Below the pieces are notes generated by a model, which was given only the letters and a program-made list of their open reading frames with translations, was not told the origin of the DNA and did no database searches. Of a stretch of 64,000 nucleotides of DNA, positions 1-60,726 are shown piece by piece; positions within the stretch are counted from its first letter, which is position 1; each line of letters opens with the position of its first letter. A program made the position numbers and the translations under genes. Origin of the DNA: Octopus sinensis (lineage: Eukaryota); contig NC_043021.1 in the NCBI RefSeq assembly GCF_006345805.1, forward strand, positions 8,246,001 through 8,310,000. The letters are read 5' to 3'.

Positions 1-82
1 TATATATATATTATATATATATATATATCTATATACATATATATCTACATATAAATATATATAGATATATATTTCTATATAC

Positions 83-134
83 ATCGTGACGTATATTTGC
101 CATTTAAATATGGCTAACCCCTAAGGGTGGATGC
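83..134 (-). mobile_element. Terminal fragment of the hammerhead-bearing element found at 59881-60288
   Basis: atcgtgacgtatatttgccatttaaatatggctaacccctaagggtggatgc is the near-exact reverse complement of 60237-60288; embedded in (TA)n. Confidence 0.85.
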
Positions 135-59595: not shown

Positions 59596-59706
59596 GACAG
59601 TAATAATAATAATAATATAATCTGCTACGAGAAGTAACTCAAACTTTAGATCGACAAATCTCTATCTGTCACTACCAATCTATTGTATTTTTCTATATAT
59701 ATATAC

Positions 59707-59825
<119 letters not shown>

Positions 59826-59850
59826 TATATTACATATATATATATATTAC

Positions 59851-59880
<30 letters not shown>

Positions 59881-59884
<4 letters not shown>

Positions 59885-60288
59885 GGCTAACCCTTAGGGG
59901 TTAGCCATATTGAAATGGCAAAAATACGTCACGATGTGTTACCGCTACTGTATATAACTCACTTTGATATTTATCATTGTTTGATTTCACTTTTCAATAT
60001 CAGCGACAGTGGACGCTGGAAAAAGTATAAGTATTTTGTGAAGGAAATCTAATTCTCGGCGACAACTATGATTGTCACACGCTGACGAGAGGTCAATACC
60101 TCGAAACTCGAGTCCGTGTGTATCATAAGTTGAAGACGGGAAGGATGACTTCCCTTTGCAAATACTGACAGGACACAGATAGTGTGTCTATGGCCAGCTG
60201 GAGGAGTGTGTCCTCCTGGGGCTAAAAACTACAGTAGCATCCACCCTTAGGGGTTAGCCATATTGAAATGGCAAAAATACGTCACGAT
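59881..60288 (+). mobile_element. Non-autonomous hammerhead-bearing element (retrozyme / Penelope pLTR-like), 353-bp period
   Basis: 46-bp direct repeats 59890-59935 and 60243-60288; 5' palindrome 59881-59910; (TA)n on both sides. Confidence 0.85.
60076..60120 (+). ncRNA. Minimal type-I hammerhead ribozyme, canonical core; predicted cleavage after C60114
   Basis: cacacg CTGACGA gaggt-caat-acctc GAAA ctcgag TC cgtgtg. Confidence 0.92.
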
Positions 60289-60317
60289 ATATATATATAT
60301 ATATATATACATATATC

Positions 60318-60683
60318 GGAGGCGCAATGGCCCAGTGGTTAGGGCAGCGGACTCGCGGTCATAGGATCGCGGTTTCGATTCCCAGACCGGGCGTTGTGAG
60401 TGTTTATTGCGCGAAAACACCTAAAACCTCCACGAGGTTCCGGCAGGGGATGGTGGTGATCCCTGCTGTACTCTTTCACCACAACTTTCTCTCACTCTTA
60501 CTTCCTGTTTCTGTTGTACCTGAATTTCAAAGGGCCGGCCTTGTCACTCTCTGTGTCACGCTGAATATCCCCGAGAACTACGTTAAGGGTACACGTGTCT
60601 GTGGAGTGCTCAGCCACTTACACGTTAATTTCACGAGCAGGCTGTTCCGTTGATTCGGATCAACCGGAACCCTCGTCGTCGTA
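60318..60683 (+). mobile_element. SINE head C + tail X
   Basis: Near-identical to 55507-55860. Confidence 0.9.
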
Positions 60684-60726
60684 GCTTCCACATATATATC
60701 TACCGCTCTCTCTCTCTCTCTCTCCT

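What the first reader, a model, noticed from the sequence alone, without database searches (positions are those of the whole stretch)
59881..60288. Retrozyme-like mini-element with a canonical hammerhead, terminal direct repeats and a fold-back 5' end, set in (TA)n
Seen: a 353-bp period bounded by identical 46-bp direct repeats (59890-59935, 60243-60288), a 13-bp-arm palindrome at the 5' end, no ORF, and a full type-I hammerhead (stem I cacacg/cgtgtg, CUGACGA, stem II gaggt/acctc, GAAA, palindromic ctcgag, GUC). A terminal fragment recurs at 83-134, also in (TA)n. Established: minimal hammerheads with palindromic stem III occur in Penelope-like pLTRs and non-LTR retrozymes and can cleave as dimers; partial-tandem ends fit reverse transcription of a circular or multimeric RNA. 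Inference: a non-autonomous, TA-targeting family that may yield a ~353-nt circular RNA. I cannot tell whether it is already catalogued.
Basis: partly seen in the sequence, partly recalled or inferred. Interest (0 to 1): 0.8.

Follow-up and report, generated by a model that had tools for sequence, protein, structure and literature searches.

The report
Young ribozyme circle riding Penelope retrotransposons
This is one copy of a 353-base non-coding unit with a hammerhead ribozyme motif that sits at many TA repeats across this animal genome, and the shape of its insertions indicates that it is likely copied from a small RNA circle by the enzyme of Penelope-like jumping genes, a route proposed before but not shown.

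Summary
Observation confirmed. The element is a young non-LTR retrozyme: 654 exact hammerhead cores genome-wide, best copies 99-100% alike, in (TA)n, no long ORF. The family anatomy adds more. Insertions end at two fixed unit positions, A (about 46) and B (88-92). Of 69 two-armed inverted insertions, 62 pair A with B and none pair A+A or B+B. That is the Penelope-like (PLE) 'tail' signature, and an autonomous PLE family in this genome shows the same pairing. Units and arms of one insertion share one haplotype (40 of 40, 55 of 55), and arms cross the cut site without indels (153 of 153). Best reading: rolling-circle, target-primed copying of a monomer circle by a PLE enzyme, primed from both DNA ends. 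Corrections: the 46-bp repeat and 5' palindrome are by-products of this insertion, and this copy has one hammerhead, so it cannot release a circle alone. Cleavage, circles and the partner family are untested. The scan noted similar PLE-type anatomy on other genomes.

The parts
59890..60288 (+). Single arm of the retrozyme: 1.13 turns of the 353-nt unit (unit position 1 = 59890), 5' end at position 1, 3' end at fixed end A (position 46)
59890..59935 (+). First copy of the 46-bp terminal redundancy (pseudo-LTR of this copy; length set by the 5' stop point)
   Evidence: variable 5' ends
60243..60288 (+). Second copy of the redundancy, ending at fixed end A, which runs into (TA)n through a shared AT
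   Evidence: 89 exact end-A junctions in the genome, control 0
59936..59981 (+). 'Tail' segment (unit 47-92); its far edge 59977-59981 is fixed end B in other copies, internal here
   Evidence: (94 end-B junctions, control 0)
59881..59893 (-). 13-nt inverted piece (reverse complement of unit 9-21); inferred fold-back of the cDNA end at the ACCC/GGGT hairpin, joined to the TA tract by ATAT
   Evidence: sequence; hot spot of 5' ends at unit 1-15, 25 of 182 against 7.7 expected; related junctions in L012, L171, L118, L128
60076..60120 (+). Type I hammerhead; predicted cut after C60114 (unit 225); stem III is the 8-nt palindrome at 60106-60113, predicted to work as a dimer
60068..60126 (+). Extended stem I (60068-72 with 60122-26) enclosing the hammerhead, inside a predicted long rod of the circular fold
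59694..59884 (.). Upstream (TA)n target tract
60287..60316 (.). Downstream (TA)n target tract
81..134 (-). Separate 54-bp 5'-truncated insertion of the same family (unit 348 to 48), ending at end A, in (TA)n; 96% alike
   Evidence: L112

Best explanation
This is a 5'-truncated copy of a young non-coding 353-nt hammerhead-bearing unit (a non-LTR retrozyme) that is likely inserted into (TA)n by the reverse transcriptase-endonuclease of a Penelope-like element, likely copying a monomeric RNA circle. SHOWN: high copy number, near-identity, TA targets, tandem arms, two fixed ends that pair A with B, one haplotype per insertion, seamless passage of the cut site, autonomous PLEs with the same end rule in the genome. 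INFERRED, in order: (1) an array with two or more hammerheads is transcribed, cuts itself as a dimer after unit 225 and is ligated to a 353-nt circle (by analogy with PMC7229834; about 0.7). (2) A PLE protein, probably a dimer, cuts both strands of a (TA)n tract and uses the two 3' ends to start reverse transcription on the same circle at sites A and B, 42-46 nt apart (PLE enzyme about 0.9; same molecule about 0.7). (3) Each cDNA runs round the circle for a variable distance (30 to about 2500 nt), and the two are joined by microhomology or short filler; if one arm fails, the other is joined to the target, sometimes after a short fold-back, as here. (4) The partner is likely one of the young TA-targeting Neptune-type families (about 0.65); which one is open.
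For: Copy number and youth: 1450 candidates, 40 scored, 130 matches, full-length ones 96-100%; 654 exact cores, control 0. Target: 128 of 138 3'-type ends run into TA. Fixed ends: 104 A arms (91 called at 46) and 78 B arms (72 at 88, 89 or 92) in 121 insertion units; two-armed units 62 A+B, 7 with one odd end, 0 A+A, 0 B+B; the end-unbiased, core-anchored subset alone gives 15 A+B of 18. PLE precedent: two RT start sites bounding the tail, on both strands (PMC11167929); inverted 5' copy with a tail at one end (PMC8557442). Same genome: family NepD shows A+B in the 4 inverted insertions whose two ends were both in view, 38-nt tail; NepA shows both ends. One template: A124G homogeneous in 40 of 40 and T291A in 55 of 55 multi-copy insertions (permutation maxima 26 and 38); 10 variants private to one insertion are fixed in all its units, 9 of them across both arms; independent set 11 of 12 and 17 of 17. 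Cut site crossed with no indel in 153 of 153; no pile-up of 5' ends there (5 of 182, 5.7 expected). Circular fold -109.5 kcal/mol, z -5.3, 0 of 100 shuffles; two-copy fold gives the dimeric hammerhead. Target duplications where the target is not pure TA: 13 bp in L015, 9 bp in L180.
Against: No cleavage, circle or transcript was shown. No sampled PLE family shares sequence with the unit or its older subfamilies (93 loci, 393 kb), so the partner is unnamed, and only 150 of 5029 GIY-YIG candidates were scored. In the one purified PLE, the hammerhead was dispensable and uncut RNA was the main template (PMC11167929). Homogeneity is also inherited from homogeneous donor arrays. 12 partial and 136 single variants exist beside 61 fixed ones; L173 alternates two variants, L107 has unit-pair variants, L244 has one discordant unit. 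The stall expected where one cDNA meets the other primer is not seen (5 of 78 and 3 of 104, chance level). Core positions are not clearly more conserved than the rest in the young family (7 of 1836 against 352 of 57916). The first stem II pair is not kept in 13 of 19 older sequences.
Confidence: 0.72

Rival explanations
1. Same PLE enzyme and same two start sites, but the template is an uncut linear multimeric transcript of a donor array; the hammerhead is a passenger or acts at another step.
For: PMC11167929 found unprocessed RNA to be the main substrate and hammerhead mutants still active. Seamless cut sites and within-insertion homogeneity also follow if donors are homogeneous. Alternating variants in L173.
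Against: A new mutation must pass through a one-unit stage to become fixed in every unit: 10 private fixed variants, and L128 has three variants fixed in 4 of 4 units. Only 14 of 133 non-fixed alleles recur in another insertion, close to my rough collision estimate of about 10, so unit-specific variants do not look inherited. The hammerhead and the roughly 355-nt unit persist in subfamilies down to 66-70% identity, with two-sided changes in stems I and II.
Confidence: 0.2
2. Single pLTR-like monomers are inserted and then grow locally into tandem arrays by slippage or unequal exchange (the scenario discussed in preprint 10.64898/2026.07.22.740005).
For: Some local duplication happens: whole insertions repeated side by side (L096, L148, L157/158, L260) and unit-pair variants in L107.
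Against: Inverted arms share private variants (9 cases); arms carry partial 5' units at scattered positions with fixed 3' ends; multi-unit arms are already present in copies at 99% identity.
Confidence: 0.04
3. The copies are broken-off 3' ends (pLTR stumps) of an autonomous PLE.
For: Two arrays are joined directly to PLE ORF pieces (L173, L243).
Against: Arms continue upstream into more of the same unit, up to about 7 turns. The two joined ORFs belong to different families whose own 3' ends carry different sequence. Of 30 loci with variant cores, one has a PLE ORF nearby and a TA tract separates them.
Confidence: 0.02
4. The second arm is made by fold-back self-priming on the first cDNA (PMC3846280 model), not by a second priming on the RNA.
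For: 4 of 45 simple junctions have the same 5' coordinate on both arms (0.6 expected). Short fold-backs occur, as in this window. It would also explain variants shared by both arms.
Against: 41 of 45 junctions have unrelated 5' coordinates, 27 of 45 overlap by 1-9 nt, and arm lengths differ freely. A fold-back of an A arm cannot produce the extra B tail.
Confidence: 0.02

Closest known systems
Animal non-LTR retrozymes (Cervera and de la Pena 2020, PMC7229834; read parts 2-4 of 6 and passages, supplement unreadable)
   Same: Tandem 150-450-bp non-coding repeats, GC under 50% (42% here), canonical type I hammerhead with weak palindromic stem III, strongly self-paired circular fold; mussel units are 350-390 bp. 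The paper hypothesises circles copied by an RT into tandem cDNA, with PLEs as strong candidate.
   Different: There the circles were shown and the mobilisation was a hypothesis; here the RNA is untested but the insertion anatomy is resolved: two fixed ends, A+B inverted arms, (TA)n target, one haplotype per insertion. The main text passages I searched had no hit for octopus, cephalopod or microsatellite.
EN+ Penelope-like elements: pLTR, inverted 5' copy and 30-40-bp tail (Craig 2021 PMC8557442, passages; Arkhipova 2013 PMC3846280, passages; Frangieh 2024 PMC11167929, main text parts 1-2 of 4)
   Same: Partial tandems, head-to-head inverted arms, tail on one end, 5' truncation, AT-rich or (TA)n targets, hammerhead upstream of the start sites.
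   Different: No ORF; the whole element is the repeat; tail 42-46 nt against 38 nt in NepA and NepD here; arms run several turns; no sequence likeness to the sampled local PLEs.
Retrozymes as non-autonomous PLE derivatives (Li, Clavereau, Pollet, bioRxiv 10.64898/2026.07.22.740005; read parts 1-3 of 5, supplements closed)
   Same: Same conclusion on the mobiliser class.
   Different: Their evidence is co-occurrence and pLTR phylogeny, mostly in vertebrates; the text has no hit for tail, target site or molluscs and leans on local amplification. Here no parent pLTR was found and the evidence is from insertion ends.
Non-autonomous Chlamys elements such as MRC1 (passage in PMC8557442)
   Same: Non-coding PLE riders with pLTRs and multicopy head-to-tail insertions.
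   Different: Those resemble their autonomous partners at the 3' end, and the clade lacks canonical hammerheads.
L1 twin priming (recalled, no call)
   Same: Both target ends prime on one RNA, giving a 5' inversion joined by microhomology.
   Different: In L1 the second priming site is variable and the arms do not overlap; here it is fixed and both arms can repeat the unit.

Membership tests
Type I hammerhead ribozyme | Core CUGANGA, GAAA, UH with stems I-III, open at stem I | tested here: met
   Rfam 32.2 bits, under the gathering score of 34
Type I hammerhead ribozyme | Stems supported by covariation | tested here: met
   92.1% of cells paired, 12 two-sided changes against 4.9 +/- 1.7; 20 sequences chosen by a pattern that fixes the core, so core invariance there is by construction; first stem II pair broken in 13 of 19
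Type I hammerhead ribozyme | Self-cleavage | not testable with these tools
   needs in vitro assay
Non-LTR retrozyme | Tandem 150-450-bp units each with a type I hammerhead | tested here: met
   353-bp period; 143 of 149 cores intact; 56 of 121 units have an arm with two or more cut sites; this copy alone has one
Non-LTR retrozyme | No protein coding | tested here: met
Non-LTR retrozyme | GC under 50% and highly self-paired circular fold | tested here: met
   GC 42%, 62% paired, z -5.3
Non-LTR retrozyme | Expressed as linear and circular monomer RNA | tested here: inconclusive
   only contigs of runs whose kind is a guess
PLE-mobilised insertion | Fixed 3' ends, variable 5' truncation, partial tandem | tested here: met
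PLE-mobilised insertion | Inverted 5' arm with a tail on one end only | tested here: met
   62 of 69 A+B, none like-with-like; tail 42-46 nt, slightly above the published 30-40
PLE-mobilised insertion | AT-rich or (TA)n target; target duplication where visible | tested here: met
   128 of 138 ends; duplications read in 2 of 22 inspected loci, most others unreadable in TA or absent
PLE-mobilised insertion | Sequence shared with the pLTR of an autonomous partner | tested here: not met
   no match in 93 loci holding PLE or other hammerhead families; sample incomplete
Autonomous PLE (stump of one) | RT plus GIY-YIG ORF upstream of the repeat | tested here: not met
Neptune clade (candidate partners NepA, B, D; my labels) | RT, CX2-5CxxC linker, C-terminal GIY-YIG | tested here: met
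   motif per PMC8557442 passages, which give it for Neptune and Nematis
Neptune clade (candidate partners NepA, B, D; my labels) | Placement in the Neptune clade by RT tree | not tested
   no reference set at hand
Plant LTR retrozyme | Type III hammerhead in true LTRs, 4-bp target duplication | tested here: not met
   type I motif, variable redundancy, 9- and 13-bp duplications

The most novel reading that the evidence does not exclude
These insertions are a genomic record of a Penelope-like enzyme reverse-transcribing a single ribozyme-made RNA circle from both ends of one DNA break, at two fixed sites, by rolling circle. The unit is a long-lived viroid-like lineage (successive subfamilies at about 89, 84 and 70% identity with the same size and ends) that has no sequence-related parent left and is recognised by structure, and the two direct joins to PLE ORFs are template switches onto the partner's own RNA.
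Probability: 0.5. Interest if true: 0.8.

Novelty: new member of a known kind. Interest (0 to 1): 0.6.

Why it matters
How animal retrozymes move is an open point in both papers that define them (PMC7229834; 10.64898/2026.07.22.740005). This family is young enough that ends, junctions and haplotypes can be read, and they point to a PLE enzyme and a one-unit template. It also gives a strict count for the PLE tail (one end A, the other B), which ties the two in vitro start sites of PMC11167929 to the two ends of one insertion. A 353-nt RNA and intact 781-aa candidate proteins from the same genome make a compact test of circle-templated, target-primed reverse transcription. The window's own copy is ordinary and probably a dead end.

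Tried and rejected
RNA: no RNA holder listed (20 holders in 11 studies, none on record as RNA). Four were laid: run X1 has a 383-nt contig, 353 + 30, as a closed assembly loop would give, but a circle and a tandem array give the same and the run may be DNA; not used as evidence. Rfam at gathering found nothing in the window; in 8 PLE loci the E-value scan listed no hammerhead, and their variant motifs were seen only by eye or regex. Parent search: GIY-YIG scan, 14 fetched PLE regions, Rfam hammerhead scan of the genome, variant-core pattern, sensitive blastn with four natural units: no parent. L058 first looked like a PLE with our unit as inverted arm; a TA/GA tract separates them. A 24-nt likeness between unit 75-98 and L051 (E 0.72) lies outside NepA and was dropped. 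Primer-collision stall: not seen. Enrichment of PLE ORFs at non-TA 5' junctions (2 of about 13 by my tally) is not distinguishable from target deletion next to a PLE. ARAGORN found no tRNA in the window. No earlier scan notes by sequence or in this genome. Literature searches for a prior description listed none for this family or for the A+B count; Repbase and Dfam could not be searched, subscription journals are missing, and the supplements of PMC7229834 and of the preprint were not visible and may hold such structures.

Full report
1. The observation. The 54-bp fragment at 81-134 is a second, minus-strand insertion. Below, unit position 1 is 59890.

2. The family. The own genome (2.72 Gb; host unnamed, I take it for an octopus from recalled repeat content, no call) gave 1450 candidates, 40 scored, 130 matches. 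The exact 33-nt core occurs 654 times, control 0; the first 100 fall in about 59 places by my count, so roughly 400 sites. A further 391 variant cores include older subfamilies at about 89, 84 and 70% identity with the same unit length and ends.

3. Ends. I sampled four ways: best matches, the first 30 of 89 end-A junctions, the first 30 of 94 end-B junctions, and 36 places chosen by the core alone. After dropping five duplicates (L179, L158, second copies in L096, L148, L260) and one older hit in L245, 121 insertion units remain; L130 is counted as two because foreign sequence parts its arms. 3' ends fall at A (42-52, 91 of 104 called at 46) or B (87-96). Of 69 two-armed, head-to-head units, 62 are A+B, 7 have one odd end, none are A+A or B+B. 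Of 52 one-armed units, 41 end at A, 10 at B, 1 elsewhere. 128 of 138 3'-type ends run into TA (earlier sample). 5' ends are scattered, with a hot spot at 1-15 (25 of 182, 7.7 expected; core-anchored subset 14 of 51 in 1-22, 3.2 expected) and none at the cut site (5 of 182, 5.7 expected). Arm junctions overlap by 1-9 nt in 27 of 45, are blunt in 2 and have 1-22 nt of filler in 16. Target duplications of 13 and 9 bp are readable in L015 and L180.

4. What the ends mean. An inverted 5' copy with a 30-40-bp tail on one end is the known mark of Penelope-like elements (PMC8557442 passages; PMC3846280 passages). Purified Poseidon protein cuts and extends both strands of AT-rich DNA and starts at two internal RNA sites that bound the tail (PMC11167929). 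This genome has young RT-GIY-YIG families with the CX2-5CxxC linker. They end in (TA)n, and NepD pairs A with B in the 4 inverted insertions with both ends in view, with a 38-nt tail. So the retrozyme's insertions look like those of its neighbours' enzymes. None of the sampled families shares sequence with the unit, so the partner is not identified. Two arrays join PLE ORFs directly; this fits a template switch but also a target deletion.

5. Template. In 63 insertions with arms of at least 60 nt and 90% identity, substitutions were counted against the window's copy. Two common polymorphisms are homogeneous in 40 of 40 and 55 of 55 multi-copy insertions (permutation means 15 and 26, maxima 26 and 38). 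Ten variants seen in only one insertion are in every unit of it, nine across both arms. Against this: 12 partial and 136 single variants, and in the independent set 11 of 12 and 17 of 17. The cut site is crossed without indel in 153 of 153, which argues against jumping between cut monomers. Non-fixed alleles recur in another insertion in 14 of 133 cases. The simplest reading is that both arms and all turns come from one monomer, a circle; homogeneous linear donors are the main rival, and the Poseidon data show a PLE can ignore its hammerhead. The predicted stall at the other primer was looked for and not found.

6. The RNA. As a circle the unit folds to -109.5 kcal/mol (100 shuffles -83.8 +/- 4.8). 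A monomer does not reach the active hammerhead fold; two copies do, through the 8-nt palindrome, as described for such motifs (PMC4209133 part 1). Across 19 distinct sequences, stems I and II show two-sided changes. Expression and cleavage are untested.

7. This copy. One arm from position 1 to end A after 1.13 turns. Its 5' palindrome is best read as the cDNA end folding back at ACCC/GGGT, extending nine bases to ATAT and pairing with the TA tract (inference; related junctions). It has one cut site and cannot release a circle alone; 56 of 121 units can in principle.

8. Comparison and verdict. It meets the sequence-level definition of an animal non-LTR retrozyme (PMC7229834), whose authors proposed circles, RT-made tandems and PLEs as candidates; a 2026 preprint argues PLE origin from co-occurrence and pLTR trees. 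My searches listed no description of this family or of the A+B count and one-haplotype rule; Repbase, Dfam and two supplements were out of reach. Earlier notes of this scan report PLE-type ends on small non-coding elements in other genomes; they are unchecked and not used as support. Verdict: new member of a known kind, with unusually clear evidence on an open mechanistic step. Interest 0.6.

Noticed in passing
L051:1636-6456, L052-L055, L059, L063, L064: Very young Neptune-type PLE family (NepA, 97-99% alike, several intact 781-aa RT-GIY-YIG frames) with an upstream 479-aa ORF overlapping the RT frame across a CCATTTTTTAG run; NepB (L058), NepD (L173) and NepE (L175) have similar T-runs there. 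Possible programmed frameshift.
   Followed up: partly
L038, L047, L050, L057 and L211-L235 3' UTRs: NepA and NepD carry hammerhead variants with a U3-A8 core; NepD is young (99-100% alike at its 3' end, 1072 candidates).
   Followed up: partly
L173:3770-8187 and L243:1393-3170: Retrozyme arrays joined directly, through a 62- or 32-nt inverted piece, to the middle of PLE ORFs of two different families; template switch or target deletion.
   Followed up: partly
L130 (L177:3150-4618), L178, L258:2760-2790: About 850 bp of foreign sequence between a B arm and an A arm; a foreign 5' flank; a 5' junction onto a poly(A) run. Possible capture of host RNA.
   Followed up: no
L181-L210, L029:660-1053, L058:6448-6772: Older subfamilies at about 89, 80-84 and 66-70% identity with the same unit length and ends near A and B; 391 variant cores in all, 5 of the 30 fetched belong to an unrelated element with the same stem III.
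   Followed up: partly
L065-L094: A second abundant hammerhead family with a CAUG stem III palindrome, also beside TA tracts; structure not worked out.
   Followed up: no
L148: Tail alone (unit 51-92), a short TA run, then a 51-to-46 unit, the whole block duplicated.
   Followed up: no
window 60318-60690: Repeat with a tRNA-like head right after the downstream TA tract; looks like a SINE (by eye; ARAGORN calls no tRNA).
   Followed up: no
window 59990 and 60034: The window copy has one T fewer and one T more in two T-runs than most other copies and than the contigs of all four laid runs; period stays 353.
   Followed up: partly
holders: Runs under 8 organism codes hold 0.73-0.86 of the unit's words; only organisms A and C were laid. 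Close relatives or mixed labels; unresolved.
   Followed up: no
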